A stretch of 39,050 nucleotides of DNA from Kayfunavirus PDP351P3. Positions 1,182-15,923 of the stretch are shown here, one piece after another; the stretch's first letter is position 1, and each line of letters starts with the position of its first letter. The stretch lies in sequence record OZ035732.1; one strand, 5' to 3'. The position numbers and the translations under genes are program-made. The notes under the pieces are model-generated. The model saw nothing but the letters and a program-made list of their open reading frames with translations, was not told the origin of the DNA and ran no database searches.

Positions 1182-2945
1182 TTGAGTAAAGACTTAGTGG
1201 CCCGTCAGGCGCTAATGACTGCACGTATGAAGGCAGACTTCGTGTTCTTCCTGTTCGTCCTGTGGAAAGCTCTGTCACTCCCCGTCCCGACTCGCTGTCA
1301 GATTGATATGGCGAAGAAACTATCGGCTGGGGACAACAGGCGCTTCATCCTACAGGCGTTCCGTGGTATCGGGAAGTCCTTCATTACGTGTGCCTTCGTT
1401 GTCTGGAAGTTATGGAACAACCCAGACTTGAAGTTCATGATTGTGTCGGCCTCAAAGGAACGAGCCGATGCTAACTCCATCTTCATCAAGCGAATCATCG
1501 ACCTCATGCCTCAGCTTCAGGAACTCAAACCTAAGCAGGGACAGCGAGATGCGGTTATCAGCTTCGACGTTGGACCAGCCAAGCCAGACCACTCACCTTC
1601 GGTTAAGTCCGTTGGTATCACTGGTCAGTTGACTGGTAGTCGTGCTGACATCCTGATTGCCGATGACGTGGAGGTTCCGAACAACTCAGCGACTCAGGCC
1701 GCACGAGACCGTCTGTCAGAGCTTGTGAAAGAGTTCGACGCTATCCTGAAGCCGGGAGGTACAATCATCTATCTGGGTACTCCTCAGAACGAGATGACCT
1801 TGTATCGTGAGCTGGAAGGCCGTGGGTACACCACTACTATCTGGCCTGCTCGTTACCCACGTGATAAGAAGGACTGGCAGTCTTACGGCGACCGTCTGGC
1901 ACCGATGCTTCAGGCAGAGCTGGAAGAGGACCCTGAGTCCTTCTACTGGCGTCCGACTGATGAAGTACGCTTCGATGATACGGACCTGAAGGAACGCGAG
2001 TTGTCATATGGTAAAGCTGGCTTCGCTCTACAGTTCATGCTTAACCCGAACCTGAGTGATGCAGAGAAGTACCCTCTGAAGCTCCGTGACCTTATCGTAG
2101 CAGACTTGGACCCAGCATCCAGCCCAATGGTCTACCAATGGTTGCCGAACCCTCAGAACAAGCGTGAGGACGTTCCTAACGTTGGACTCATGGGTGACTC
2201 ATACCACACGTATCAGACTGTAGGTTCTGCCTTCAGTTCGTACACCCAGAAGATTCTGGTCATTGACCCTAGTGGTCGTGGTAAGGATGAAACTGGCTAT
2301 GCGGTACTATACCAGCTCAACGGCTACATCTTCGCTATGGAAGTTGGTGGTATGCGTGGTGGCTATGAAGACTCTACTCTGGAAGCGCTGGCTAAGATTG
2401 GTCGTAAGTGGAAGGTCAACGAATACGTCATTGAGGGTAACTTCGGTGATGGCATGTACCTTGAGCTATTCAAGCCTGTAGCGGCCCGTATTCATCCTGC
2501 TGCTGTAACTGAAGTGAAGAGTAAGGGTCAGAAGGAACTCCGCATATGTGACGTTCTGGAGCCTATCATGGGGTCTCACCGACTTATCGTTAACGCTGCT
2601 GCTATCGTCCAAGATTACCAGTCGGCCTCTGATAAGGATGGTGTTCGTAACCCTATCTACTCTCTCTTCTACCAGATGACACGTATCTCTCGTGAACGTG
2701 GAGCCTTGGCACACGATGACCGACTTGATGCTCTGGCTATCGGTGTACAGTTCTTCGTTGAGTCTATGGCTAAGGATGCCAACAAAGGCGAACGTGAAGT
2801 CACTGAGGAGTGGCTGGAGGAACAGATGGAGAACCCACGGAAAGGCTTCGAGTCCATCCACACTGAGTTCTGGGACAATGGGGTCCGGGTAACTCACGAT
2901 ACGGACGACGAGCTGGGGCTAGGGTCCTACATTACGTTCCACTAG
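1182..2945 (+). CDS. large terminase subunit / DNA maturation protein B (T7 gp19-like)
   Basis: 587-aa ORF, TTG start with AAGGAGG RBS; near-colinear match to recalled T7 gp19 ([72 protein letters not shown]). Confidence 0.95.
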
Positions 2946-3039
2946 CTTAATGAATAACTATGGGTGAAAGCTGCATGAATACGCAGTTAGTAACCTATAG
3001 TTACTACCAGTCTAACCTACTGTTTTACAAGGAGTTTGG

Positions 3040-3062
3040 ACTTAACTATCACTATAGGGAAG
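3040..3062 (+). promoter_or_regulatory. phage RNAP promoter (phiOR-like, downstream of gene 19)
   Basis: ACTTAACTATCACTATA-GGGAAG; matches the 11-member promoter family of this genome; predicted +1 G at 3057. Confidence 0.7.
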
Positions 3063-3241
3063 ACCCCCGGTTACTTATAGTATTACTGTAGTGAATATAC
3101 ATATGCAGACTTTATGCAAGACCTTAGGAGGCAGACTCCGAGTTCTTACCTAAGGCTTGCACCGATGGAAGGAGGGTGATATTAATCATAATCCCTCCAA
3201 TACAGATAGTAAAGACCATAGATACAGGAGGTATGTAGCAT

Positions 3242-3400
3242 ATGGCAAAGACCAAAGCTGTACTTAAAGCTCTGGCGACCAATCGAGCTACATACAGGTT
3301 TCTTACTGCTGTTCTACTTGCTGCTGGCGTTACTGCTGGAAGTCAGTGGGTCGGGTGGGTCGAGACTCTCGTATGTTCTCTGGTCTCTCAGTGTAATTAA
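3242..3400 (+). CDS. small hydrophobic protein (gene 19.5 position)
   Basis: 52-aa ORF with AGGAGG RBS, predicted TM segment (FLTAVLLAAGVTAG); position corresponds to T7 gene 19.5; no sequence match asserted. Confidence 0.4.
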   Translation: MAKTKAVLKALATNRATYRFLTAVLLAAGVTAGSQWVGWVETLVCSLVSQCN

Positions 3401-3561
3401 CGCAATCATGGTAACGATTCATGAGCGGAAGACCTAAGGTCAGTACGTGGATAAAGACTCACTCTACTGACCTTAGCTACTGTAGTCAAGGACTTTAGGT
3501 AACACCTTAAGAGAAGCTCACTTAGGGTCATCCTACTTATTGGTCTATCCTAGTGTCGCCT

Positions 3562-3602
3562 GACCTACGGTCCTTGACCTACAGTGGCTGTGGCCTACAG
3601 TA
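3562..3602 (+). repeat. short-repeat array (ACCTACRGT x3), candidate SRR-like repeats left of the terminal repeat
   Basis: GACCTACGGT, GACCTACAGT and GCCTACAGT within 40 bp. Confidence 0.5.
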
Positions 3603-3638
3603 GTGACGATGAGTTTGGACCAAAAGTTTGAGACCACA

Positions 3639-3840
3639 TCTCACAGTTCAAGAACCTCAAGTCTCCCCATAGGCCCTCTTTCAGTCCAGACCAAAGGCCC
3701 TACCCCAGTCTATCATAAGGTTGGACCGATGGTCAAGACGTTAGGTCGACGATAGGTCTAGGCTATGGCTTAGGGAAGGACGATAGGTTGGGACTATGGG
3801 TCTTCTTTGAGTCTCTATCTGTATCAGACCTTGAGTCACT
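3639..3840 (+). repeat. probable direct terminal repeat (single collapsed copy) containing the physical genome ends
   Basis: Begins with TCTCACAGT, the sequence that starts the T7 genome as I recall it; internal similarity to the T7 terminal repeat (TCCCCCATAGG, TCTCTATCTGT); flanked on both sides by ACCTACAGT arrays; boundaries approximate. Confidence 0.45.
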
Positions 3841-3925
3841 ACCTACAGTCTAACTACCTACAGTCTAACTACCTACAGTCATCGACCATCGGTACTGCCG
3901 CTACCTACAGTCAGAGACCTACAGT
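3836..3925 (+). repeat. short tandem repeat array (CTAACTACCTACAGT x3 plus 2 extra CCTACAGT), SRL-like
   Basis: Three tandem 15-bp units followed by two more CCTACAGT copies, directly right of the putative terminal repeat. Confidence 0.6.
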
Positions 3926-4036
3926 TAATAGACACAAAGGCTATAGACTTAAGGTCTAAGACATGTTAGTCAAAGACTATATCCTCTTACACCATGAGGC
4001 CGACGATAGCTTAATCAATATTATTTAAATTACCTA

Positions 4037-4065
4037 TTGACTATGGGTCTCGACTATGGCTTAAT
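4037..4065 (+). promoter_or_regulatory. candidate host sigma70 early promoter (A1-like)
   Basis: TTGACT-N17-CTTAAT; downstream sequence (CGTCAACACGACACGGCA) resembles the T7 A1 region as recalled. Confidence 0.4.
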
Positions 4066-4177
4066 AGCTTCCGTCAACACGACACGGCAACAACCGGATA
4101 GTGAAGACGCCGGGTCATCCCGGTTAAGTAGACAGCCTGCTAAGTCATACGAACAACAGGCAGATGACAGAAAGTAG

Positions 4178-4207
4178 TTGACAAGTAGTACAGACTTAAA
4201 GTAGTAT
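4178..4207 (+). promoter_or_regulatory. candidate host sigma70 early promoter (A3-like)
   Basis: TTGACA-N18-TAGTAT followed by GTACCACAT...CACTGAAA...CTCTTTAACAATCTGG, closely resembling the T7 A3 promoter and downstream leader as recalled. Confidence 0.5.
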
Positions 4208-4406
4208 GTACCACATCGAAACAACGGTGACGACCGACACTGAAACGGTCTACCTGAAGTCCTCTGACTGAAGGGAATGCTCTTTAACAATCTGGATAAA
4301 CTCTTAATGTGCGCCGATAGCGACTAACTACAGGGTCTTTGAGTCTACATCTGAAGGCCCTGACTGATAGTCACTAACACATACTTAACTTTGAGAGGAT
4401 ATAACT

Positions 4407-4916
4407 ATGGAACGTAACGCTAACGCATACTATGAGCTGCTGGCTGCAACTGTTGAAGCATTTAACGAGCGCATTCAGTACGACGAAATAGCTGAAGGCG
4501 ATGACTACTGCGATGCGCTGCATGAAGTCGTAGACGATATGGTTCCGCACTATTACCACGAGATTTTCACGGTGATGGCTGCCGATGGTATTGACCATGA
4601 GTTCGAAGACTCTGGGCTGATGCCTGAGACCAAGGACGTAACGTGTATACTACAAGCTCGCATCTATGAGGCACTGTATAATGATGTGTCTAATAGCTCG
4701 GATGTGGTATGGTTCGAGCCTGAAGAGGGCGACGAAAAGGCTGAATATTGGGTAGTTGATGCTAGAACAGGCGAGATAATTGAGCAAGCTGTATCACTTT
4801 ACGAGGCTATTGCATGTGCAAAAGACCTCTATGAGGCAGGTTTTCACATGCAGGTCGAAGACATCAATGATAACGTAGTGTTCGACCCTGCGTCTGCTGA
4901 GGAGGACTGCGAGTGA
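4407..4916 (+). CDS. ocr: Ocr-like DNA-mimic anti-restriction protein (gene 0.3) with about 55-aa C-terminal extension
   Basis: 169-aa highly acidic ORF; residues 1-105 align with recalled T7 Ocr ([43 protein letters not shown] vs [43 protein letters not shown]); first gene after the early promoters. Confidence 0.85.
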
Positions 4917-5071
4917 TAGTAACTTATGGTATCTGCCAGTATCACGTCAACATCGCCCGTATTATGGTCAAGACCGGGCAGTTAACGCACGATGCGGCTA
5001 TACGTCACCTGAAAGCGGTCTATAATGGCCGCAAGCGTATACACGACAGCTTACACGCTGAGGACAAGTAA
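4913..5071 (+). CDS. hypothetical early protein (52 aa, GTG start)
   Basis: GAGGAGG RBS 7 nt upstream of GTG; overlaps ocr stop; below the 60-aa ORF-track cutoff; no homolog recognised. Confidence 0.35.
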
Positions 5072-5072
5072 C

Positions 5073-5198
5073 ATGTACCAGATAACTTATAGCAGTGAAC
5101 AGGCGTTCTACGATGGGTGCTACGAGATGATGAAGCGCGGGGCTTGCTACGTGGCTAATCACCATAGCCTGACCATAACGCTGACAGGTGGCTACTAA
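5073..5198 (+). CDS. hypothetical early protein (41 aa)
   Basis: ATG with GAGGA RBS 7 nt upstream; MYQITYSSEQAFYDGCYEMMKRGACYVANHH...; no homolog recognised. Confidence 0.35.
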   Translation: MYQITYSSEQAFYDGCYEMMKRGACYVANHHSLTITLTGGY

Positions 5199-5274
5199 CT
5201 GCGAGTGATAGACGAGAGGTCATCGACTGATAGGTGGCCTCAAAGATTACCACTTGCATTAAGAGGAGTTAACT

Positions 5275-5364
5275 ATGAGTGTGGGACATTGGGTCTGCCT
5301 AGCGCCAGTTATCTGGATGATAGGCTATGGGATATACGACTGTATTAAACGGAAGTCACTATGA
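5275..5364 (+). CDS. hypothetical small membrane peptide (29 aa)
   Basis: AGAGGAG RBS; hydrophobic (WVCLAPVIWMIGYGIY); stop overlaps next start (ATGA). Confidence 0.25.
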   Translation: MSVGHWVCLAPVIWMIGYGIYDCIKRKSL

Positions 5365-5561
5365 TAGCTGCATTATTGATAGCCATAGGCTATGGACTTA
5401 TCGCCTACGTGCTGGTGAGAGACATCAACAAGGCACGTAAAGTCTACAAATTCAACTATGTGCGTCTGGGTCGCTGGACTGTACGTCAACCTAACGGACG
5501 ATTCATGCGCAACTTAGCGAACGTCTGGGATATAGCAACACTTGGGAGCAAACTACAATGA
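5361..5561 (+). CDS. hypothetical early protein with N-terminal TM segment (66 aa)
   Basis: ORF-track ORF; N-terminal hydrophobic helix MIAALLIAIGYGLIAYVLV followed by basic region; weak RBS. Confidence 0.5.
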   Translation: MIAALLIAIGYGLIAYVLVRDINKARKVYKFNYVRLGRWTVRQPNGRFMRNLANVWDIATLGSKLQ

Positions 5562-5884
5562 ACAAGTCATACGGGATTAATCTGGTACACTCTATGGACG
5601 CAGACATGCAAATGTTAAGCCTACTGGCTACCGGGTATCGTCACGGAACGTCAAGTCACTCCGCACGTCAACAGCAGGAGAGGGACCAGGTACTGCAAGC
5701 AAGACTCCGGGCTGAGGGCCATAAGTCCGAACTGATGTGTCTGGCGTATGGGGGACAACCAATCACCGAAGATGGTAAACTTCTGGTCTCAGGCTGGAGG
5801 GCGATAGACCAACGGTCAACCATCAAGCACACGACTCACGGTGACTTCAGCCATCTTCACGCTAACCCGCTGATATGCAAGTAA
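5558..5884 (+). CDS. hypothetical early protein (108 aa) at the position of T7 gene 0.7
   Basis: ORF-track ORF, translationally coupled (ATGA overlap); no kinase motifs visible; no homolog recognised. Confidence 0.55.
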   Translation: MNKSYGINLVHSMDADMQMLSLLATGYRHGTSSHSARQQQERDQVLQARLRAEGHKSELMCLAYGGQPITEDGKLLVSGWRAIDQRSTIKHTTHGDFSHLHANPLICK

Positions 5885-5889
5885 TTCTG

Positions 5890-5912
5890 ACTTAACTATC
5901 ACTATAGGACTC
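5890..5912 (+). promoter_or_regulatory. phage RNAP promoter immediately upstream of the RNA polymerase gene
   Basis: ACTTAACTATCACTATA-GGACTC; predicted +1 G at 5907; followed by repeat-rich leader (AAGTGAAAGAC x2, GACTTTAAGT x2). Confidence 0.7.
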
Positions 5913-5981
5913 AAGGTCTAAGACTCCAAGTGAAAGACCAAAGAGACTTTAAGTGAAAGACTAATAACAAGGACTTTAAGT

Positions 5982-8663
5982 ATGAGCGTCATATCTATTG
6001 ACAAACATGACTTCTCTGATGTGTCGAACGCTATTGAGCCGTTTAACCTGCTGGCCGACCACTATGGGCAAGACCTTGCAGTCAAACAGCTTCAGCTTGA
6101 GCATGAGGCATACACTGAAGGCGAGCGACGTTTCATCAAGAACCTTGAGCGACAGACTGAGCGCGGGGAACTGGCAGACAATCAGGTCGCCAAGCCTTTG
6201 ATGCAGACTCTTGTACCTAAGATTGCGCAAGCCGTCAGGGAGTGGCATGAAGGTCCAGACGGGAAGCTGTCAACCTCTCGTCCGAGCGTAGCGTTCACCA
6301 TGTTGAGCACTGAAGAGAAGGTCGTTAAAGACCGCTCTCTACGCATCTCCTGTGAGTCTGCTGCGGTTATCATACTGAAGGTCATCCTCTCCAAGCTTGT
6401 CAAGCCTGAAGGGATACCGATTACACCGATGGCCTCCGCGATAGGCCGTACACTTGAGGATGAAATCCGCTTCGGTCGCATCCGAGACAAGGAGCAGGAG
6501 CACTTCAAGAAGGCGATAGCTGAGAACCTGAACAAGCGAGCCGGCGCATCCTACAAGAAGGCCTACATGCAAGCTGTTGAGACATCCATGCTAGAGCAGG
6601 GTCAACTGGAAGATGCGTGGGGGACTTGGAGTCCGACCGAGGCTGTCCACGTTGGCATCAAGATGCTTGAGATTGTCATCCAGTCAACACAACTGGTCGA
6701 GCTTAAGCGCTACGGTGCTGGCAATGCAGCGGCTGACGTTGAGATGGTCCACCTGTCAGACTTCTGGGTAAAGAAGATGGCACAACGAGGATTCAGCCTT
6801 GCGGGTATCGCTCCGGTCTACCAACCTTGCGTCGTTCCACCTAAGCCGTGGACTGGTGTCGTAGGAGGTGGGTACTGGGCCAAAGGACGCAGACCACTAC
6901 CACTGATTCGCTTAGGGTCTAAGTCTGCGGTGGCACGTTACGAAGACGTGTACATGCCTGAAGTCTATGACGCTGTGAATATCATCCAGAATACGCCTTG
7001 GAAAGTGAACAAGAAGGTTCTGGACGTGGTGAACATGGTCGAGAAGCTGAATAACACGCCTATTGACGACATCCCTCAGATGGAACCACTGAAGCCTGAA
7101 GACTATGCGGGTGAGACTGAAGAGGAACTCAAGGCGTGGAAGAAGGCTGCTGCTGGTATCTACCGCCGAGAGAAGGCCCGGCAGTCACGCAGATTGTCAC
7201 TGAGCTTTATCGTTAACCAAGCGAACAAGTTCTCTCAGTTCAAGGCCATCTGGTTCCCGTACAACATGGACTGGCGAGGTCGCGTCTACGCTGTGCCGAT
7301 GTTCAACCCTCAGGGTAACGACATGCAAAAGGGTCTCCTGACTCTGGCAGTCGGTAAGCCTATTGGTGCTGATGGTTTCAAATGGCTGAAGGTCCACGGT
7401 GCAAACTGCGCGGGTATTGATAAAGTAACCTTCGAGGAGCGCATAAAGTGGGTTGAAGACAACCACGATAACATCATGGCTACCGCTAAGGCACCGATGG
7501 ACAGCATTGAGTGGTGGGGCAAGTTAGACTCTCCGTTCTGCTTCCTTGCGTTCTGCTTCGAGTATGCTGGCGTAATGTACCACGGTTTGTCTTACTCCTG
7601 TTCGCTGCCGATAGCTTTCGATGGGTCCTGCTCTGGGATTCAGCACTTTAGTGCGATGCTTCGTGATCACATCGGTGGACATGCGGTAAACCTGACGCCT
7701 TCCGGTAAGGTCCAAGACATTTACCGCATCGTGTCTGACCGCATTGAGGAGGAGCTTAAAGTCCTGCTGGTTAACGGTACGGATAACGAGATGGTGACTC
7801 ACGAGGACAAGAAAACGGGTGAGATTACCGAGCGTCTCAAGCTGGGGACACGAGAGCTGGCCCGTCAATGGCTGACATACGGTATGTCACGCAAGGTCAC
7901 TAAGCGCTCAGTAATGACTCTGGCCTACGGGTCGAAAGAGTATGGCTTCGCAGACCAAGTGTACGAGGACATCGTGATGCCAGCGATTGACTCAGGGTCT
8001 GGCGCTATGTTCACTGAGCCAAGCCAAGCGTCTCGCTTCATGGCTAAGATGATTTGGGAAGCTGTGAGCGTGACCGTAGTTGCTGCGGTAGACGCTATGA
8101 AGTGGCTTCAAGGTGCCGCCAAGCTGCTGGCTGCTGAAGTGAAGGACAAGAAGACTGGAGAAATCCTTAAGCCTTGCCTTCCGGTACACTGGGTCACACC
8201 TGATGGTTTCCCGGTCTGGCAGGAATACCGCAAGAAGGATACCACTCGTCTTAACCTGATGTTCTTAGGGTCATTCAACCTTCAGCCTACAGTCAATAAA
8301 GGCATGAAGAAAGAGCTGGACAAGCACAAGCAGGAGTCAGGCATTAGCCCGAACTTCGTCCACTCACAAGATGGTAGCCACCTCCGAAAGACTGTAGTCC
8401 ACACACATCGTAAGTACGGAGTGATGTCATTCGCAGTGATTCATGATAGCTTCGGGACCATCCCGGCTGACGCTGAGTATCTATTCCGTGGTGTCCGCGA
8501 GACGATGGTCGAGACCTACCGCGACAACGATGTGCTGCTTGACTTCTACGAGCAGTTTGAATACCAGCTTCATGAGAGCCAGCGCGACAAGCTGCCAGAG
8601 CTTCCGAAGAAAGGTAAACTGAATATCGAAGACATCTTGTCTTCAGACTTTGCATTCGCTTAA
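5982..8663 (+). CDS. single-subunit DNA-directed RNA polymerase (T7 gene 1-like)
   Basis: 893-aa ORF; long colinear identity blocks with recalled T7 RNAP (FPYNMDWRGRVYAV, MFNPQGNDM, DGSCSGIQHFSAMLRD, RSVTKRSVMTLAYGS, HDSFGT, terminal FAFA). Confidence 0.98.
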   Translation: MSVISIDKHDFSDVSNAIEPFNLLADHYGQDLAVKQLQLEHEAYTEGERRFIKNLERQTERGELADNQVAKPLMQTLVPKIAQAVREWHEGPDGKLSTSRPSVAFTMLSTEEKVVKDRSLRISCESAAVIILKVILSKLVKPEGIPITPMASAIGRTLEDEIRFGRIRDKEQEHFKKAIAENLNKRAGASYKKAYMQAVETSMLEQGQLEDAWGTWSPTEAVHVGIKMLEIVIQSTQLVELKRYGAGNAAADVEMVHLSDFWVKKMAQRGFSLAGIAPVYQPCVVPPKPWTGVVGGGYWAKGRRPLPLIRLGSKSAVARYEDVYMPEVYDAVNIIQNTPWKVNKKVLDVVNMVEKLNNTPIDDIPQMEPLKPEDYAGETEEELKAWKKAAAGIYRREKARQSRRLSLSFIVNQANKFSQFKAIWFPYNMDWRGRVYAVPMFNPQGNDMQKGLLTLAVGKPIGADGFKWLKVHGANCAGIDKVTFEERIKWVEDNHDNIMATAKAPMDSIEWWGKLDSPFCFLAFCFEYAGVMYHGLSYSCSLPIAFDGSCSGIQHFSAMLRDHIGGHAVNLTPSGKVQDIYRIVSDRIEEELKVLLVNGTDNEMVTHEDKKTGEITERLKLGTRELARQWLTYGMSRKVTKRSVMTLAYGSKEYGFADQVYEDIVMPAIDSGSGAMFTEPSQASRFMAKMIWEAVSVTVVAAVDAMKWLQGAAKLLAAEVKDKKTGEILKPCLPVHWVTPDGFPVWQEYRKKDTTRLNLMFLGSFNLQPTVNKGMKKELDKHKQESGISPNFVHSQDGSHLRKTVVHTHRKYGVMSFAVIHDSFGTIPADAEYLFRGVRETMVETYRDNDVLLDFYEQFEYQLHESQRDKLPELPKKGKLNIEDILSSDFAFA

Positions 8664-8675
8664 CAGGAGAGAGCT

Positions 8676-8891
8676 ATGAAATTTGCACACAAGCATACTG
8701 GCGTTAATGGCGGGACTCAAATCGTGACCGTAACAGAACACAACGGAAAGGGTCTGGTGAAGACCACGGTCATTCCTACCGAGATGTCAAAACAGCTTAA
8801 CGTCCCATTCAAGACCCTCGTCTATCTTGTGGAATCTAACCACGAGAAATACCTGAAAGACGCAGTGACCAAGCTGGAGCAGACCAAATGA
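8676..8891 (+). CDS. hypothetical protein (71 aa)
   Basis: ORF-track ORF with AGGAGAGAG RBS directly after gene 1; no homolog recognised. Confidence 0.5.
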   Translation: MKFAHKHTGVNGGTQIVTVTEHNGKGLVKTTVIPTEMSKQLNVPFKTLVYLVESNHEKYLKDAVTKLEQTK

Positions 8892-8965
8892 CAGACCTAC
8901 AGTTGCTGGCCTTGTGGCTGGGAGCACTCGCAGTATTCACTTTAATCCAGCGCAGAAGAGGTTAA

Positions 8966-8988
8966 CCTAAACTATCACTATAGGATTA
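8966..8988 (+). promoter_or_regulatory. phage RNAP promoter (phi1.1-like; candidate primary replication origin region)
   Basis: CCTAAACTATCACTATA-GGATTA; position after gene 1 corresponds to T7 phi1.1A/B, which flank the primary origin. Confidence 0.75.
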
Positions 8989-9030
8989 GACTCAAGGTCA
9001 TGACTCAAAGTCGTGGCCTTCATGATTAAC
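8985..9030 (+). promoter_or_regulatory. conserved structured RNA element copy 2 (putative RNase III site R1.1-like)
   Basis: AGACTCAAGGTCAT-[GACT caa AGTC hairpin]-GTGGCCTTCATGATTA; upper hairpin differs from copies 1 and 3 by compensatory changes. Confidence 0.5.
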
Positions 9031-9060
9031 CCTAATAAACACTACTGGAGATTTAACCGT

Positions 9061-9240
9061 ATGTATCAGAACACTATCAACTTCGAGCGCATCCGTGAAC
9101 GTCAGCAGACTGAAGGTTACATTCCTAAGGGACGCAAGCTGAACAAGACTAAACGTGGTGGTGGCGTGAAGGGTGCTTTCCGTAATGCTGAGGGCAAAGA
9201 CTCTATGGTCAACCAAGAGAAGTATTTCGTAGGAGCATAA
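9061..9240 (+). CDS. gp1.1-like small basic protein
   Basis: ATG 9061 with GGAG RBS 9 nt upstream (track ORF 9013 starts at a GTG inside the RNA element); contains GRKLNKTKR as in recalled T7 gp1.1. Confidence 0.6.
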   Translation: MYQNTINFERIRERQQTEGYIPKGRKLNKTKRGGGVKGAFRNAEGKDSMVNQEKYFVGA

Positions 9241-9244
9241 AAGT

Positions 9245-9496
9245 ATGAGCAGACGTTGGTTATTCGATGCATCCACGAGCCAGTGGTCAGCGTTAGGCCG
9301 GACTCACCGCGAGATGAGTGAGGCAGGACTTGATGTCCTAATGGATGACTCGCCGTGCTCAGGAAAAACTCTGGTCAGAATAATTGAAGCAGACGGTGGG
9401 AGGCTTCTGGTCTCCAGAGAATTTACCGAAGATGAAATCTTTAACTGTGAGCAATGGTGCTTACAACAATTGAACGCTTATAGGAGCTGGAAATAA
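9245..9496 (+). CDS. gp1.2-like protein (candidate inhibitor of host dGTPase)
   Basis: 83-aa ORF at gene 1.2 position; pattern similarity to recalled T7 gp1.2 (R..IED..G.L...F..E..FN.C..WL, terminal WK). Confidence 0.55.
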   Translation: MSRRWLFDASTSQWSALGRTHREMSEAGLDVLMDDSPCSGKTLVRIIEADGGRLLVSREFTEDEIFNCEQWCLQQLNAYRSWK

Positions 9497-10575
9497 TGAC
9501 TACTACTCTCAAGACCAACCCGCACCGCGCTGTAGATTACTCTGAGTCTGGCATTAAGAAGGCACTGGAGGCAGCAGGGTCTCTGGAAGCTGAGGTGAAG
9601 TACGATGGTGTGCGCCTGAATCTCCCGGTCCTGCGTGAAGGTGAGACCTACTGGCTGAGCCGTGAGTCGAAACCCCTGCCTGCCTTGGAATGGATGAACT
9701 CTGAGTTAGGTAATGCGTGGACCCAAGCTGACTGGCGCTGGTTCCTACGTCAAGCTGGATACGAAGGCGTGGGCCTGATGATTGACGGAGAGGTAATGGT
9801 CAAAGGCGTTGACTTCAACACCTCCTCAGGTCTCATCCGAACGAAGTGGCTGAAGCCTAGCAACGAGGAGTTCGCCGCTGTATGCTATCCGGGCCGTGGC
9901 AAGAAGGTCCCGTTCTGGGTCGCCCGGTCACGACTTCAGGTTGTTGTATACGGTGTCGTAGACATGACAACCATTGCTGACCCGAAAGCCGAAGGTCCTA
10001 TCCATAGCGTAACCCGACTGAAGGCCGAAGCTATCGTCCCTCTACTTCAGAAATACTTCCCGGAAATCGACTGGGTTCTGTCTGAGTCACACACGGTCTA
10101 TGACCTTGAGTCGCTCAACTCCCTGTACGAAGAGAAGCGTCTGGAAGGACATGAGGGTCTGGTAGTCAAGGACCCACTTGGTAAGTGGAAGCGTGGCAAG
10201 AAGTCAGGCATGTGGAAAATGAAGCCTGAGGATACCATCGACGGGACCGTATGCGGACTCGTGTGGGGGACTCCGGGTAAGGCCAACGAAGGTAAGGTGA
10301 TTGGCTTTGAGGTGCTGCTTGAGGATGGCATGGTGGTCAATGCTTGTGGCCTGACTGAAGAACAGAAGGACGAGTTCACGGCAGAAGTATTTAACCGCAA
10401 TGGGATTGACTCCCAGCGCGAGTACGAGGAATTGCTTTGTATTGAGACTTTCAACCCTTACGGCGGGTGGCAGTGTGAAGTCCTCTTCATGGAGCGGTTC
10501 CCTGATGGTTCCTTACGTCACCCTAGCTTCAAGTGCTGGCGCGGGACGGAAGATAACCCGACCATTAAGAGCTAA
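9496..10575 (+). CDS. ATP-dependent DNA ligase (T7 gene 1.3-like)
   Basis: 359-aa ORF; KTNP..AV...ES.IKKAL, adenylation motif E-KYDGVR, EGHEGLVVKDP, KRGKKSGMWKMKPE, DGSLRHPSF.RGTEDNP match recalled T7 ligase. Confidence 0.95.
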   Translation: MTTTLKTNPHRAVDYSESGIKKALEAAGSLEAEVKYDGVRLNLPVLREGETYWLSRESKPLPALEWMNSELGNAWTQADWRWFLRQAGYEGVGLMIDGEVMVKGVDFNTSSGLIRTKWLKPSNEEFAAVCYPGRGKKVPFWVARSRLQVVVYGVVDMTTIADPKAEGPIHSVTRLKAEAIVPLLQKYFPEIDWVLSESHTVYDLESLNSLYEEKRLEGHEGLVVKDPLGKWKRGKKSGMWKMKPEDTIDGTVCGLVWGTPGKANEGKVIGFEVLLEDGMVVNACGLTEEQKDEFTAEVFNRNGIDSQREYEELLCIETFNPYGGWQCEVLFMERFPDGSLRHPSFKCWRGTEDNPTIKS

Positions 10576-10584
10576 CTAAATGTC

Positions 10585-10620
10585 AACCCAGTGGTCTTCG
10601 CGGACTGCTGGGTTTCTTTG
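10585..10620 (+). terminator. putative intrinsic terminator for host RNAP (TE-like) after ligase
   Basis: Imperfect hairpin AACCCAGTGGTC...GACTGCTGGGTT followed by TCTTTGCTTTG; same location as T7 TE. Confidence 0.5.
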
Positions 10621-10660
10621 CTTTGTGCTAGCAAGCTATCGTCTGGGACACCAGCCTGAC

Positions 10661-10683
10661 CCTAAGCTATCACTATAGGACAA
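10661..10683 (+). promoter_or_regulatory. phage RNAP promoter (phi1.5/1.6-like)
   Basis: CCTAAGCTATCACTATA-GGACAA (G at -12). Confidence 0.7.
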
Positions 10684-10707
10684 CCATCAACAACCTAAGG
10701 AGACTCT

Positions 10708-10968
10708 ATGTCTAAGAACTTAATGTTCAACCGTTATTCTAGTACCTTCCACCTGTCCAACAACCTGTTCGCTTGCATTAAGCGAAACGAGAAGCTGGGC
10801 TACTTCGGGAAGGCCGTTAAGCTGTCACCTACAGTATTCGCTCTGATTACTCCGGGCAAAGCTGAAGAGGCTCGCCAGAAGCGTGAGACAAATGTGCCCG
10901 TGGTCCACACTAAGTGGCCACGCGTTCGTCTGTTCGTTGAGTTCGTAAAGGAGGTGGTAAATGGCTAA
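10708..10968 (+). CDS. hypothetical protein (gene 1.6 position)
   Basis: 86-aa ORF-track ORF with AAGGAG RBS; no homolog recognised. Confidence 0.55.
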   Translation: MSKNLMFNRYSSTFHLSNNLFACIKRNEKLGYFGKAVKLSPTVFALITPGKAEEARQKRETNVPVVHTKWPRVRLFVEFVKEVVNG

Positions 10969-11293
10969 GCACAAGGAGTGGTGTCGCTCGGTCCTTAGCT
11001 TCGGTTCGTGCGACTGCGGTGCTGGTAACAGCATCATCGCCGCGTGTAGTAAAGATGACGGGGTTCGCAAGCCATCTCACTATCAGGTCTTTGATGGCGT
11101 GGAATCCATTGAGATTATAGCACGGTCAATGACTGTCAGCGAGTTCCGTGGGTTCTGCTTAGGCAACGTCCTGAAGTATCGACTCCGGGCTGGTAAGAAG
11201 TCAGAGCTGGCTACTATGGAGAAGGACTTGAACAAAGCAGCCTTCTATCAGGAGCTGTTCGACCAACATAAAGGTAAATGTTATGCTGCCTAG
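10961..11293 (+). CDS. gp1.7-like nucleotide kinase (short form)
   Basis: C-terminal 75 aa nearly colinear with recalled T7 gp1.7 (KPSHY..FD..E.IE.IARSMTV..F.G.C.GN.LKYRLRAGKKSELA..EKDL.KA.FY.ELF..HK.KCYA); N-terminus much shorter than T7. Confidence 0.8.
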   Translation: MAKHKEWCRSVLSFGSCDCGAGNSIIAACSKDDGVRKPSHYQVFDGVESIEIIARSMTVSEFRGFCLGNVLKYRLRAGKKSELATMEKDLNKAAFYQELFDQHKGKCYAA

Positions 11294-11378
11294 TGAGTGG
11301 TGCCGGGAGATGTATGAGAAGACTCTCAACCCGGACTACATTACGTTATACAACCAATGGAAGGAGCGCGGTCTATGA
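11283..11378 (+). CDS. hypothetical small protein (31 aa, gene 1.8 position)
   Basis: Short ORF whose stop overlaps gp2 start (ATGA); weak RBS; frame choice uncertain. Confidence 0.25.
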
Positions 11379-11533
11379 CTGAGGTTGAGAAGAAGTACAT
11401 CGTGGAGCTTGAGGGTCGCGTTCAGTCCTTCGAGGTTCCGGTGTACGCAAAGTCTCTTGAAGAGGCTACCATGAAGTCCCAAGAGTATGAGGACGCTGGG
11501 TTTGTGGTCGGACGGATTCGTCCTGAGACCTAA
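11375..11533 (+). CDS. host RNA polymerase inhibitor (T7 gp2-like)
   Basis: 52-aa ORF (below ORF-track cutoff); [14 protein letters not shown]...[14 protein letters not shown] matches recalled T7 gp2 (SFEVPIYAETLDEA...PAGFEVTRVRP). Confidence 0.75.
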
Positions 11534-11551
11534 ACTATCACTGTAGGACAT
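11529..11551 (+). promoter_or_regulatory. phage RNAP promoter variant (phi2.5-like)
   Basis: CTAAACTATCACTGTA-GGACAT; one core mismatch (G at -3). Confidence 0.55.
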
Positions 11552-11590
11552 ACGTCCAGTTCGTAACTTTAAATTAGGAGATTTACACCG

Positions 11591-12289
11591 ATGGCTAAAG
11601 AGAAACTGAAGACTTTCACCACTCCGGTAGCTGGTATCGTTGAGCCTTACGCATGGCTGAACAAAGCAGACACCAAGTTTAATGAGCGTGGTGAGCATAA
11701 GGTTAACCTGACTTTCAGTCTGGATGACCCGAAGGTCCGTAAGATGATTGATGTCTTACAGAAGATTCACGACGATGCGTATGCGAAAGCACTCGCAGAC
11801 CACGAGAAGAACCCACCTCAGGTTCAGCGTGGCAAGAAGCCTATCGAGCCGCGTGAAGGCGATATGCCGTGGATTGAGAATGGTGACGGTACTGTTACCC
11901 TGAAGTTTAAATGCTTTGCGTCTTACCTTAAAGACGGCAAGTCAGAGCCTATCGTATTACGGTTCTACGACACCGATGCTAAACTCATCCGTGACGTCCC
12001 GAATATTGGCGCTGGCTCCAAACTGAAGGTCAAGTTTAAAGTCATGCCGTTTAAGTGGAACGCTGCGACTGGTGCAAGCGTTAAGCTCCAGCTTGAGTCC
12101 TGCCTTCTGGTAGAACTGAAGGAGTGGAAAGGCGATGGTGCTGGTGGTGATGGTGGCTGGGGTGATGATGAAGACATCGGTACTGGCTACAAAGCGTCAA
12201 CTGATGGTGACTTCGGGTCTGATGACTTCGGTGACGATGGTTCCGAAGGTGATGACGACTCCGGCTCTGGTGGCGATTACGACTTCTAA
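11591..12289 (+). CDS. single-stranded DNA-binding protein (T7 gp2.5-like)
   Basis: 232 aa; GDMPW..NGDGT.T.KFKC.AS, GSKLKVK, KWN.A.GASVKLQLES..LVEL, acidic Gly/Asp-rich tail ending in F as in T7 gp2.5. Confidence 0.95.
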   Translation: MAKEKLKTFTTPVAGIVEPYAWLNKADTKFNERGEHKVNLTFSLDDPKVRKMIDVLQKIHDDAYAKALADHEKNPPQVQRGKKPIEPREGDMPWIENGDGTVTLKFKCFASYLKDGKSEPIVLRFYDTDAKLIRDVPNIGAGSKLKVKFKVMPFKWNAATGASVKLQLESCLLVELKEWKGDGAGGDGGWGDDEDIGTGYKASTDGDFGSDDFGDDGSEGDDDSGSGGDYDF

Positions 12290-12741: not shown

Positions 12742-13196
12742 TGACTACCTGTAAAGACCTTGAAGTTGGAACACGTTACAGATTCTCAAAGAACACCCTG
12801 TTGAATAACCCCGGATTCACTGATGCTGTTTTCGAAAAGCGAGAAGACCATAGCGTAATTGTGGAGAAGGGGTGGCATCCTGAGGATTACATCGGTGAGA
12901 CTACCAGCTGGAATGGTCACGAGACCTACAGTGTAGAAGTTGTTGACCAGCCTCAAGTCCTGCCAGCTTCGAGCGTACCACCTGTGACTGTGAAGCGTGA
13001 AGTCCTGACCATCGACAAGATTGGTGTGGGCCAGACGTTCATCGTCCACGGTAAACCGGAGGAAGTGTACGTTAAGATTAGTAACTCACACGTCTTCAAC
13101 CATAAGCGCCTCCAGATGCACACCACGGATGCACAGCGCTTCACCCAGCACCTGAATCTTGTGGTCGTAGAATTGGTGGTGTACAATGGTAAGTAA
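12741..13196 (+). CDS. hypothetical protein (151 aa) between endonuclease I and amidase
   Basis: ORF-track ORF (ATG 12741, AAAGGAG RBS); typical local codon usage; T7 has no gene here; no homolog recognised. Confidence 0.6.
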   Translation: MTTCKDLEVGTRYRFSKNTLLNNPGFTDAVFEKREDHSVIVEKGWHPEDYIGETTSWNGHETYSVEVVDQPQVLPASSVPPVTVKREVLTIDKIGVGQTFIVHGKPEEVYVKISNSHVFNHKRLQMHTTDAQRFTQHLNLVVVELVVYNGK

Positions 13197-13644
13197 GGTA
13201 CAGTTCAACCCACGGTCCCGGACTGACGCTATCTTCGTTCACTGTTCGGCTACCAAGCCAGAGATGGACATCGGGGTAGAGACCATCCGTATGTGGCATA
13301 AGCAACAAGGCTGGCTGGACGTAGGCTACCACTTTATCATCAAGCGCGATGGTACTGTGGAAGAGGGTCGCCCGGTCAATGTCGTAGGGTCACACGTTAA
13401 GGACTGGAACTCACGGTCTGTAGGCGTCTGCCTTGTAGGTGGAATTGATGCTAAGGGAAAGTTTGAAGCTAACTTCACTCCGGCCCAGATGAACTCACTG
13501 CGAAACAAGCTGGCTGACCTGAAGGTCCTGTATCCTCAGGCAGAAATCAAAGCACACCATGACGTAGCGCCAAAGGCGTGTCCAAGTTTCGACTTACAAC
13601 GCTGGCTGTCTACCAACGAACTGGTCACTTCCGACCACTGTTAA
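13186..13644 (+). CDS. N-acetylmuramoyl-L-alanine amidase / T7 lysozyme (gene 3.5-like)
   Basis: 152 aa; VQF..R..TDAIFVHCSATKP, WLDVGYHFIIKRDGTVE.GR, GVCLVGGID.KGKF.ANFTPAQM.SLR, AHH.VAPKACPSFDL.RW, terminal ELVTSD match recalled T7 gp3.5. Confidence 0.95.
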   Translation: MVSKVQFNPRSRTDAIFVHCSATKPEMDIGVETIRMWHKQQGWLDVGYHFIIKRDGTVEEGRPVNVVGSHVKDWNSRSVGVCLVGGIDAKGKFEANFTPAQMNSLRNKLADLKVLYPQAEIKAHHDVAPKACPSFDLQRWLSTNELVTSDHC

Positions 13645-13667: not shown

Positions 13668-13883
13668 ATGATTAAACTTATCGAATTTCTTGGTCGTCTG
13701 GTGGTGCGTGGTTATCGTCGTGCTGCGGCTATGGAACGAAAGGTAGAAAAGAAGACTGCTGATGGTGCGGCTGATGCTGCTGCTCTAGCTGACAAGCTGA
13801 CCATCGCGTCACTGGAAGCTGGGATGAAGGCACGTCAAGCTGACACCAAAGCTGACCAGTTGTCTCAGTTCTTCAAAGCCTAA
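13668..13883 (+). CDS. hypothetical Ala-rich protein (71 aa)
   Basis: ATG 13668 with AAAGGAG RBS (track ORF 13578 extends upstream without RBS); no homolog recognised. Confidence 0.5.
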   Translation: MIKLIEFLGRLVVRGYRRAAAMERKVEKKTADGAADAAALADKLTIASLEAGMKARQADTKADQLSQFFKA

Positions 13884-13901
13884 ACTATCACCTTAGGGAT
13901 G
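13879..13901 (+). promoter_or_regulatory. weak or variant phage RNAP promoter upstream of gene 4
   Basis: CCTAAACTATCACCTTA-GGGATG; upstream half matches consensus, -4 and -3 deviate (CT instead of TA). Confidence 0.4.
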
Positions 13902-15860: not shown

Positions 15861-15902
15861 TCTAGACTCAAGGTCATTCACTTCGAGTGGCCTTTATGAT
15901 TA
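15861..15902 (+). promoter_or_regulatory. conserved structured RNA element copy 3 (putative RNase III site upstream of DNA polymerase)
   Basis: AGACTCAAGGTCAT-[CACT tcg AGTG hairpin]-GGCCTTTATGATTA, then RBS GCGGAGGA and ATG 15924. Confidence 0.5.
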
Positions 15903-15923
15903 GACTAAAGCGGAGGATTAACC

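What the first reader, a model, noticed from the sequence alone, without database searches (positions are those of the whole stretch)
5890..5981. Phage-type promoter directly upstream of the phage RNA polymerase gene (possible positive feedback)
A full-consensus phage promoter (ACTTAACTATCACTATAGGAC) sits 70 bp upstream of gene 1. In T7 as I recall it, gene 1 is transcribed only from host promoters and the first phage promoter follows gene 1. A promoter here would let the polymerase transcribe its own gene. The leader also contains two direct repeats (AAGTGAAAGAC and GACTTTAAGT, each twice) and a GACTCAAGGTC motif shared with the putative RNase III elements.
Basis: seen in the sequence. Interest (0 to 1): 0.5.

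Follow-up and report, generated by a model that had tools for sequence, protein, structure and literature searches.

The report
Phage promoter ahead of polymerase gene
A genuine phage-polymerase promoter sits just upstream of the phage's own RNA polymerase gene, so the enzyme can probably boost its own production, but the same element is standard in K1F-like phages and is already annotated in public records.

Summary
ACTTAACTATCACTATAGGAC lies at 5890-5910, with predicted start G5907, 75 nt before the ATG (5982) of the 893-aa RNA polymerase gene. It is one of ten co-oriented promoter matches where shuffles give none. The window is a circularly permuted K1F-like (Kayfunavirus) genome.

The same promoter and leader occur in 221 phage records, including K1F itself. 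Public records of EcoDS1, PE3-1 and Citrobacter phage CR8 already annotate it as a promoter.

The best evidence for function is co-variation. Relatives whose polymerase recognises a different promoter (T3-like ACCCT in SFP21B, GGTAC in CR8) carry that version upstream of gene 1. The site is as conserved as non-synonymous codon positions.

T7, T3 and K11-like phages have phiOL far upstream of gene 1. The K1F/CR8 clade lacks phiOL and has this promoter instead.

The direct repeats and the half RNase III motif are real but not conserved, and no RNA structure is statistically supported.

The most likely function is positive feedback on polymerase synthesis, a natural "autogene". This was already proposed for LUZ100 and phiA318 and is untested experimentally in this genus. 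Verdict: real, probably functional, already known, low to moderate interest.

The parts
5890..5912 (+). Phage RNA polymerase promoter directly upstream of gene 1 ('phi1'), positions -17 to +6: ACTTAACTATCACTATAGGACTC
   Evidence: 32.5 bits against a matrix of the other nine sites. Identical in K1F and EcoDS1, where it is annotated 'promoter phi'.
5907..5907 (+). Predicted transcription start (+1 G), by analogy with T7-group promoters
   Evidence: Position inferred from alignment to the T7 consensus CACTATA-G. No transcript data.
5907..5981 (+). 75-nt leader of the phage-initiated gene 1 transcript (37% G+C against 50% for the genome)
   Evidence: Folding is no better than shuffles (z = +0.38).
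5908..5918 (+). GACTCAAGGTC, the 5' half-motif shared with the canonical RNase III-type hairpins at about 300, 8989 and 15865. The matching 3' half (GTGGCCTTyATGATTAA) is absent here.
5928..5938 (+). Direct repeat AAGTGAAAGAC, copy 1. Not conserved in SFP21B-type or group-2 relatives.
5951..5961 (+). Direct repeat AAGTGAAAGAC, copy 2
5945..5954 (+). Direct repeat GACTTTAAGT, copy 1
5972..5981 (+). Direct repeat GACTTTAAGT, copy 2. It is part of the ribosome-binding region AGGACTTTAAGTATG, which is identical to the T7 gene 1.1 ribosome-binding region.
5969..5973 (+). Shine-Dalgarno AAGGA, 8 nt before the ATG
   Evidence: The segment 5966-5984 (ribosome-binding region through the ATG) has mean conservation 0.975 over 27 distinct relatives.
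5896..5959 (+). Possible hairpin in read-through (host-initiated) RNA only. The promoter core TCACT (5899-5903) pairs with AGTGA (5952-5956), around an inner stem GGTCT/AGACC.
   Evidence: z = -1.48, not significant; 10 of 500 shuffles do as well here, 0 of 500 in group-2 relatives, and no excess in SFP21B or CR8.
5982..8663 (+). Gene 1, single-subunit RNA polymerase (893 aa)
   Evidence: Pfam RNA_pol 7.7e-106. 64% identical to T7 RNA polymerase.
5558..5884 (+). Upstream ORF (108 aa, no Pfam family). It sits where the gene called 0.38 lies in K1F, EcoDS1 and CR8. Its stop codon is 5 nt before the promoter.
4178..4207 (+). Best sigma-70-like host promoter of the early region (TTGACA, 18 nt, TAGTAT). 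A second TTGACT lies at about 4038.
   Evidence: EcoDS1 annotates three host promoters in the equivalent region.
8966..8988 (+). Next phage promoter (phi1.1 equivalent), followed by a canonical RNase III-type hairpin beginning at 8989
10585..10614 (+). Early terminator (TE equivalent) after the ligase gene. No predicted + strand terminator lies between the host promoters and gene 1.
   Evidence: EcoDS1 annotates TE at the same place.
3040..3062 (+). phiOR equivalent, about 600 nt before the physical genome end (about 3638/3639). It is identical to phi1 from -17 to +2. It is not a phiOL.
11357..11533 (+). Gp2-type inhibitor of host RNA polymerase (context: it would shut off host-driven gene 1 transcription)
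   Evidence: Pfam RNA_pol_inhib 3.4e-20.
13186..13644 (+). Gp3.5-type amidase/lysozyme (context: in T7 it binds and inhibits the phage polymerase, so it is a candidate brake on the loop)
   Evidence: Pfam Amidase_2 2.4e-16. The regulatory role is inferred from T7 knowledge.

Best explanation
The site is a functional promoter for the phage's own single-subunit RNA polymerase, placed between the gene called 0.38 and gene 1.

Proposed sequence of events:
- Early in infection, host RNA polymerase starts at the sigma-70 promoters near the left end (about 4038 and 4178). It reads through the small early genes into gene 1 and makes the first polymerase molecules.
- Those molecules then start at G5907 and transcribe gene 1 again. 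This is a positive feedback loop, a natural 'autogene'.
- The loop keeps polymerase mRNA coming after the phage Gp2 homologue has silenced the host enzyme. It also sends transcription on into genes 1.1-1.3 and beyond.
- The start sequence GGAC resembles the early/middle promoters of this genome. The loop is probably damped later by the Gp3.5 lysozyme homologue, as for T7 class II promoters.

Shown: the sequence match, the position and orientation, conservation, co-variation with polymerase specificity, and the absence of a predicted terminator.

Inferred: initiation at 5907, the feedback itself and its shut-off.
For: - Ten co-oriented matches against 0 expected. This site scores 32.5 bits against a matrix built from the others, and background is at most 13.6 bits.
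- The promoter and leader are identical in K1F and Peacock and differ at one base (in the spacer just upstream of the promoter) in EcoDS1. They are present in 221 phage records, 220 of which cover at least 80% of the 121-nt query.
- Three lineages have different promoter specificities, and each carries its own version upstream of gene 1. The window type is AACTATCACTATAGG. SFP21B has AACCCTCACTATAGG at all 12 of its sites, including the one before gene 1, and its specificity loop differs (Asp for Asn at T7 position 748, Arg for Asn at 756). CR8 has GGAAGGTACACTATAGG.
- Over 27 distinct relatives, mean conservation is 0.961 for -17..+6. It is 0.72-0.80 at third codon positions of the flanking genes and 0.964 at first and second positions of gene 1.
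- In a survey of 80 IMG/VR loci, all 21 with a polymerase at least 79% identical have the promoter at -75 to -102.
- The only + strand terminator-like sites in 2900-11700 are at 10059 and 10585.
- Depositors annotated the site as a promoter in EcoDS1, PE3-1 and CR8.
- Precedent: a transcription start from a phage-specific promoter directly upstream of the polymerase gene was mapped in LUZ100, and a positive feedback loop was proposed (PMC10134795). A similar promoter was predicted in phiA318 (PMC4099482). T7 autogene plasmids give autocatalytic polymerase expression (PMC1500874).
Against: - There are no transcript or biochemical data for this phage or, as far as I could find, for any Kayfunavirus. 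I could not read the original K1F genome paper.
- In group-2 relatives the gene 1 promoter alone carries A at -2 (CACTAAAGG) while the only other promoter captured in those loci keeps T. This could mean relaxed selection on strength. T3-type promoters normally have A at -2, so the change is probably tolerated.
- T7-, T3- and K11-like phages do without a promoter here, so the benefit may be modest.
- The promoter could be kept for a reason other than gene 1 expression, as set out in the rival explanations.
Confidence: 0.75

Rival explanations
1. The conserved element is mainly an RNase III processing site, the equivalent of T7/T3 R1, which sits at the same place. It would separate gene 1 mRNA from the upstream early RNA. 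On this view the promoter-like sequence is just one arm of the hairpin.
For: - T7 and T3 have an RNase III site R1 directly upstream of gene 1.
- T3 annotates stem-loops that enclose promoters (R6.5/phi6.5 and R13/phi13).
- The leader begins with GACTCAAGGTC, the 5' half of the canonical sites at 300, 8989 and 15865.
- The promoter core can pair with a downstream AGTGA. In group-2 relatives this is a perfect 10-bp pairing (0 of 500 shuffles do as well).
Against: - The canonical 3' half (GTGGCCTTyATGATTAA) is missing.
- Folding is not better than shuffles (z = -1.48 and +0.38).
- The consensus fold of 12 variants shows no compensatory pair.
- Promoter-core complementarity is absent in SFP21B and CR8 (97 and 132 of 500 shuffles do as well), although the promoter is kept there.
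- A hairpin arm would not need to change in step with the polymerase's specificity.
Confidence: 0.1
2. The promoter serves mainly DNA replication, as a transcription-activated origin like T7 phi1.1A/B plus its AT-rich region, or T3 phi1.05. Transcription of gene 1 would be a by-product.
For: - The leader is AT-rich (37% G+C against 50% for the genome).
- T3 annotates its primary origin just downstream of a phage promoter next to gene 1.
- A global alignment of this leader with the T7 phi1.1B leader scores 21 against -9 +/- 4 for shuffles. I recall from memory, not from a tool result, that this T7 leader is the AT-rich part of the T7 primary origin.
Against: - A local scan shows the T7 similarity is carried by the shared ribosome-binding region AGGACTTTAAGTATG. 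Without it, the T7 phi1.1B leader is no longer the best match (score 13 against a background of 8 +/- 2).
- The middle of the leader is the least conserved part (0.893) and differs among lineages.
- The element lies upstream of gene 1, not downstream as in T7 and T3.
Confidence: 0.1
3. It is the functional replacement of phiOL. It would give the phage polymerase an entry point in already internalised DNA, so that the polymerase can take over genome internalisation and early-to-middle transcription. Self-amplification of gene 1 would be incidental.
For: - The K1F/CR8 clade has no phiOL-like site between the left end and gene 1 (best score 7.7 bits).
- T7-, T3- and K11-like loci show the opposite pattern: phiOL present, nothing within 250 nt of gene 1.
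- phiOL is credited with polymerase-driven genome entry (PMC6171733).
Against: - The phi1.1 equivalent at 8966 also lies upstream of TE and could do the same job.
- Whatever the selected role, any transcript from 5907 necessarily contains gene 1. This rival therefore overlaps the main explanation rather than excluding it.
Confidence: 0.2
4. It is a non-functional relic or a chance match.
For: There is no experimental evidence of initiation.
Against: - Zero matches are expected by chance.
- The site is as conserved as non-synonymous codon positions.
- It co-varies with polymerase specificity in three lineages.
Confidence: 0.02

Closest known systems
The promoter annotated directly upstream of gene 1 in Escherichia phage EcoDS1 (NC_011042, 'promoter phi' 2244-2266), PE3-1 (NC_024379) and Citrobacter phage CR8 (NC_023548, 'predicted promoter' 3356-3378). 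The same sequence is present but unannotated in K1F (NC_007456).
   Same: EcoDS1 and K1F have the identical promoter and an almost identical leader, at the same place between gene 0.38 and gene 1. CR8 has the same arrangement with its own promoter sequence.
   Different: Nothing material. The window is another member of the genus. The records name the feature but give no function.
Pseudomonas phage LUZ100 promoter phi1 (PMC10134795)
   Same: It is a phage-specific promoter directly upstream of the phage RNA polymerase gene. Host read-through is proposed to prime a positive feedback loop.
   Different: LUZ100 is a distant, temperate-like relative. Its start site was mapped experimentally, and the loop is proposed to be gated by a MarR-like repressor. 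I found no repressor or lysogeny gene among the window proteins I examined or in the annotation of its congener EcoDS1.
Vibrio phage phiA318 promoter phi-A8 (PMC4099482)
   Same: It is a predicted phage promoter upstream of the kinase and polymerase genes, interpreted as autoregulation.
   Different: It is a prediction only. It sits before the kinase gene rather than directly before gene 1, and the phage belongs to a different lineage.
T7/T3 phiOL
   Same: It is a phage promoter upstream of gene 1 and the leftmost phage promoter of the genome.
   Different: phiOL lies about 2.6-2.8 kb upstream, before the host promoters A1-A3. It is regarded as weakly used and linked to genome entry (PMC6171733). 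The window has no phiOL.
Engineered T7 autogene (T7 RNA polymerase gene under a T7 promoter)
   Same: [quoted passage not shown]
   Different: The autogene is artificial and plasmid-borne. Here the arrangement is natural and primed by host transcription during infection.
T7/T3 RNase III site R1 upstream of gene 1
   Same: It occupies the same genomic position. The window leader starts with the 5' half-motif of this hairpin family.
   Different: The 3' half is missing and no stable or co-varying hairpin is found.

Membership tests
T7-group (Studiervirinae) single-subunit RNA polymerase promoter | A conserved sequence of about 23 bp (-17 to +6), repeated at several sites in the same genome, co-oriented with the genes | tested here: met
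   Ten + strand matches against 0 expected. This site scores 32.5 bits against the other nine.
T7-group (Studiervirinae) single-subunit RNA polymerase promoter | Core CACTATA followed by +1 G | tested here: met
   CACTATAGG at 5900-5908.
T7-group (Studiervirinae) single-subunit RNA polymerase promoter | The specificity region (about -12 to -8) matches the cognate polymerase and changes with it | tested here: met
   The window has ACTAT. SFP21B has ACCCT at all 12 sites together with specificity-loop changes. CR8 has GGTAC at all of its sites.
T7-group (Studiervirinae) single-subunit RNA polymerase promoter | Initiation by the phage polymerase at +1 in vitro or in vivo | not testable with these tools
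   I found no transcript data for this genus.
Self-transcribed polymerase gene (autogene-type positive feedback) | A cognate promoter upstream of and co-oriented with the polymerase gene, with no terminator between them | tested here: met
   The promoter is at 5890-5912 and the ATG at 5982. No terminator-like site lies between them.
Self-transcribed polymerase gene (autogene-type positive feedback) | Polymerase-dependent rise of its own mRNA | not testable with these tools
   This needs infection time courses or a reporter assayed with and without the polymerase.
T7-type RNase III processing hairpin | Both halves of the canonical hairpin (GACUCAAGGUCAU ... GUGGCCUUyAUGAUU) | tested here: not met
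   Only the 5' half is present at 5908-5918. Full sites occur at about 300, 8989 and 15865.
T7-type RNase III processing hairpin | A stable structure supported by co-variation | tested here: not met
   z = -1.48 and +0.38. None of the 9 consensus pairs is compensatory. Core complementarity is lineage-specific.
phiOL | Located near the left genome end, upstream of the host early promoters | tested here: not met
   The site is about 2.27 kb from the physical end (about 3639) and downstream of the host promoters.
T7-type primary origin (phage promoter plus AT-rich region) | Specific similarity to the T7 origin leader, or an AT-rich block downstream of the promoter | tested here: inconclusive
   The leader is 37% G+C. 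The similarity to T7 rests on the shared ribosome-binding region only.

The most novel reading that the evidence does not exclude
In the K1F/CR8 clade the leftmost phage promoter was moved, in evolutionary terms, from the genome end (phiOL in T7, T3 and K11 relatives) to directly before gene 1. This would make a natural autogene that frees polymerase supply from the host enzyme once Gp2 acts. In some lineages the promoter core doubles as the 5' arm of a hairpin that can form only in host-initiated RNA, so the two classes of gene 1 mRNA would be processed or translated differently.
Probability: 0.25. Interest if true: 0.4.

Novelty: already known. Interest (0 to 1): 0.22.

Why it matters
If the loop works as inferred, K1F-like phages regulate their key enzyme differently from the T7 textbook model. 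Polymerase synthesis would be self-sustaining rather than tied to the short period of host transcription.

This bears on models of T7-like gene expression, on engineering K1F-type phages for therapy, and on the use of K1F polymerase-promoter pairs in synthetic circuits.

The clean split between clades (phiOL in one, a promoter before gene 1 in the other) and the three-way co-variation form a small comparative result. It could be tested with one promoter knock-out.

It is not a new kind of element. The site is annotated in public records, and the feedback idea is already published for other T7-like phages.

Tried and rejected
- RNA structure of the leader. Folding the phage-initiated leader and the read-through region gave nothing beyond shuffles. 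The consensus fold of 12 variants gave only a weak pairing (-4 kcal/mol) between the transcript 5' end and the ribosome-binding region, with no compensatory change.
- Hairpin using the promoter core as one arm. It is significant only in group-2 relatives, marginal in the window and in Kc166A, and absent in SFP21B and CR8. I rejected it as the reason the promoter is conserved.
- Homology of the leader to the T7 phi1.1B/origin leader. The global alignment looked significant. A local scan showed it depends on the shared ribosome-binding region, so I rejected it as specific homology.
- A hidden phiOL. The matrix scan of 3639-5880 gave at most 7.7 bits. The stretch at 3941-3978 resembles the start of the leader (31 of 38) but lacks a promoter core. 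It aligns with the T7 A1 host promoter region.
- A host promoter next to gene 1, like the T7 'C' promoter. None was found on the + strand near 5800-5980.
- Direct repeats as a conserved protein-binding array. The first AAGTGAAAGAC copy is lost in SFP21B-type and group-2 leaders, so I rejected this.
- Literature. The K1F genome paper (Scholl and Merril 2005) and Chen and Schneider 2005 are not held. Searches found no transcript mapping for Kayfunavirus.

Full report
WHAT THE WINDOW IS

The window is a complete, circularly permuted genome of a K1F-like phage (genus Kayfunavirus, subfamily Studiervirinae). A 1.2-kb query around the finding matches 212 phage records. Most are at 90-97% identity and are named Kayfunavirus or come from Escherichia, Salmonella, Citrobacter and Enterobacter hosts. 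The physical left end (TCTCACAGTTCAAG...) is at about 3639, judged from position 1 of K1F and Peacock.

From that end the order is as follows:
- Sigma-70-like host promoters at about 4038 and 4178.
- An ocr-like gene 0.3 at 4407-4916, followed by small ORFs.
- A 108-aa ORF at 5558-5884, in the position of the gene called 0.38 in relatives.
- Gene 1 at 5982-8663, the single-subunit RNA polymerase (Pfam RNA_pol 7.7e-106).
- A ligase gene at 9496-10575.
- A terminator-like hairpin at 10585-10614, where EcoDS1 annotates TE.

THE OBSERVATION

ACTTAACTATCACTATAGGAC is at 5890-5910 on the + strand. By alignment to T7-type promoters, +1 is G5907, and the ATG is 75 nt downstream. The pattern with up to three mismatches occurs ten times, always on the + strand, against 0.00 in 100 shuffles.

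A position matrix built from the other nine sites scores this one at 32.5 bits. The nine score 30-39 bits, an eleventh weaker site at 13879 scores 23.2, and nothing else exceeds 13.6.

The site matches the invariant core from -12 to +3. Its start sequence GGAC resembles the early/middle promoters (10661, 11529) rather than the GGGA of most late ones.

They are part of four loose GACTnnAAGT units.

HOW WIDESPREAD IT IS

- K1F itself has the identical promoter and an almost identical leader before its gene 1.0, and so do Peacock and EcoDS1.
- A 121-nt query covering only the promoter and leader finds 221 phage records. Of these, 220 cover at least 80% of it, and 98 are at least 99% identical.
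- EcoDS1 annotates 'promoter phi' at 2244-2266, directly before gene 1 at 2336. PE3-1 also carries a promoter feature there.
- A recent Kayfunavirus genome paper lists the promoter repeat at the 3' end of the gene preceding the polymerase gene, without comment (PMC13298934).

EVIDENCE THAT IT IS FUNCTIONAL

Three results go beyond mere presence.

First, conservation. Over 27 distinct sequences, positions -17 to +6 average 0.961 identity to the window and the ribosome-binding region averages 0.975. Third codon positions of the flanking genes average 0.72-0.80, and first and second positions of gene 1 average 0.964. The bases just upstream of -17 vary freely.

Second, co-variation with the enzyme. 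Shigella phage SFP21B and Enterobacter phage 01_vB_Eclo_IJM have a leader about 90% identical to the window's, but their promoter reads AACCCTCACTATAGG. In SFP21B all 12 promoters have this T3-like form. Its polymerase differs in the specificity loop, with Asp for Asn at T7 position 748 and Arg for Asn at 756. Citrobacter phage CR8 (genus Caroctavirus, polymerase 79% identical) uses GGAAGGTACACTATAGG at all of its sites. One of these lies between its gene 0.38 and gene 1 and is annotated 'predicted promoter'. Three specificities, each with its own version at this place, would not be expected of a relic or a mere hairpin arm.

Third, a survey of 80 IMG/VR loci found with a polymerase alignment. 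All 21 loci with at least 79% identity have the promoter 75-102 nt before gene 1. None of the 59 loci of T7-, T3-, K11-like and other clades (58-64% identity) has a cognate promoter within 250 nt.

THE CONTRAST WITH T7

The T7 and T3 records show a phage promoter, phiOL, at 405 and at 366-388. It lies upstream of the host promoters A1-A3 and therefore of the whole early region. Most of the non-K1F loci that include their left end have a phiOL-type site 1.3-4.4 kb upstream of gene 1.

The window has none. Between the left end and 5880 the best score is 7.7 bits. The site at 3040 is the phiOR equivalent, about 600 nt before the right end.

The real difference is therefore one of placement. The K1F/CR8 clade lacks phiOL and has its first phage promoter directly before gene 1. 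T7 and T3 have an RNase III site (R1) and a minor host promoter at that spot. phiOL is described as weakly used and is linked to polymerase-driven genome entry (PMC6171733).

THE LEADER

Neither the phage-initiated leader (z = +0.38) nor the read-through region (z = -1.48) folds better than shuffles.

GACTCAAGGTC is the 5' half of the canonical hairpins at about 300, 8989 and 15865. These closely resemble T7 R1.1. The 3' half is missing here.

The promoter core TCACT can pair with AGTGA at 5952-5956. In a second group of relatives, whose promoter has A at -2, this becomes a perfect ATCACTAAAG/CTTTAGTGAT pairing. None of 500 shuffles does as well there, 10 of 500 do in the window, and there is no excess in SFP21B or CR8.

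The consensus fold of 12 variants has no compensatory pair. The first AAGTGAAAGAC copy is not kept in other lineages.

An apparent similarity to the T7 phi1.1B leader is carried by the shared ribosome-binding region AGGACTTTAAGTATG.

I conclude that the promoter and the ribosome-binding region are the selected parts. A hairpin may be an add-on in some lineages.

MECHANISM

The best-supported reading is as follows:
- Host polymerase primes gene 1 expression from the left-end promoters. No terminator is predicted before gene 1.
- The new phage polymerase then starts at 5907 and transcribes its own gene, which is a positive feedback loop.
- This continues after the Gp2 homologue (11357-11533, Pfam RNA_pol_inhib) has inhibited the host enzyme.
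- By analogy with T7, the Gp3.5 amidase homologue (13186-13644) would later restrain it. The roles of Gp2 and Gp3.5 are established T7 knowledge applied by inference.

The circuit is the natural counterpart of engineered T7 autogenes, which give autocatalytic expression (PMC1500874).

The same idea has been proposed for LUZ100, where the start site was mapped and a positive feedback loop proposed (PMC10134795). It has also been proposed for phiA318 on prediction alone (PMC4099482).

Initiation at 5907 and the feedback itself remain untested here. I found no transcript mapping for this genus and could not read the original K1F genome paper.

VERDICT

The feature is real, far beyond chance and very probably a working promoter. 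The element is already annotated in congeners, and the feedback concept is published for other T7-like phages, so I class it as already known.

What this check adds is the three-way co-variation argument and the clade-level swap between phiOL and a promoter before gene 1. Both are modest and testable. Interest is low to moderate.

Noticed in passing
window 13879-13901: This is an eleventh, weaker phage-promoter match, CCTAAACTATCACCTTAGGGATG. It scores 23.2 bits, against 30-39 for the ten clear sites and at most 13.6 for background. It lies just upstream of gene 4 (13952). EcoDS1 annotates a promoter at the equivalent place (11107-11129).
   Followed up: partly
window 3040-3094: The phiOR-equivalent promoter is identical to the gene 1 promoter from -17 to +2. 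It is followed by an inverted copy of its own core: TCACTATAG at 3049-3057 and CTGTAGTGA at 3086-3094, 89% complementary.
   Followed up: partly
window 3941-3978: About 300 nt from the physical left end, CTATA-GACTTAAGGTCTAAGACATGTTAGTCAAAGAC matches the gene 1 promoter from -5 to about +33 at 31 of 38 positions, but it lacks a promoter core. It also aligns with the T7 A1 host promoter region. It may be a host promoter or a relic related to the leader.
   Followed up: partly
window, whole (for example 300, 970, 1929, 3827, 7989, 10102, 14806, 22115, 33604): GACTCAAGGTC with up to one mismatch occurs 18 times on both strands, against 0.86 expected. Only about five copies lie in RNase III-type hairpins, and many are inside coding regions. 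The excess is unexplained.
   Followed up: no
window about 300-345, 8989-9040, 15865-15910: These are three canonical hairpins of the T7 R1.1 type (GACTCAAGGTCAT ... GTGGCCTTyATGATTAA), which are likely RNase III processing sites. The one at 8989 immediately follows the promoter at 8966.
   Followed up: partly
L017-L022, L027, L029, L040-L042, L048, L050 (group-2 relatives), about 81 nt before gene 1: In this lineage only the gene 1 promoter carries A at -2 (CACTAAAGG), while the only other promoter captured in the loci checked (the one downstream of gene 1) keeps T. The change completes a perfect 10-bp inverted repeat with the leader (ATCACTAAAG / CTTTAGTGAT).
   Followed up: partly
L073, L078 (IMG/VR loci, polymerase about 60% identical): These phages use a K1F-like promoter specificity (ATTAACTATCAC) but have the T7-like layout. 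A phiOL-type site lies about 2.6 kb upstream of gene 1, and there is none directly before it.
   Followed up: no
L075 (T3-like) -617; L079 -995 relative to gene 1: Two loci outside the K1F clade have an extra cognate promoter inside the early region, a few hundred nt upstream of gene 1. Phage promoters upstream of gene 1 therefore also arise elsewhere.
   Followed up: no
window 4917-5557: The window has no ORF large enough to be a gene 0.7 protein kinase between gene 0.3 and gene 1. SFP21B and CR8 do have one.
   Followed up: no
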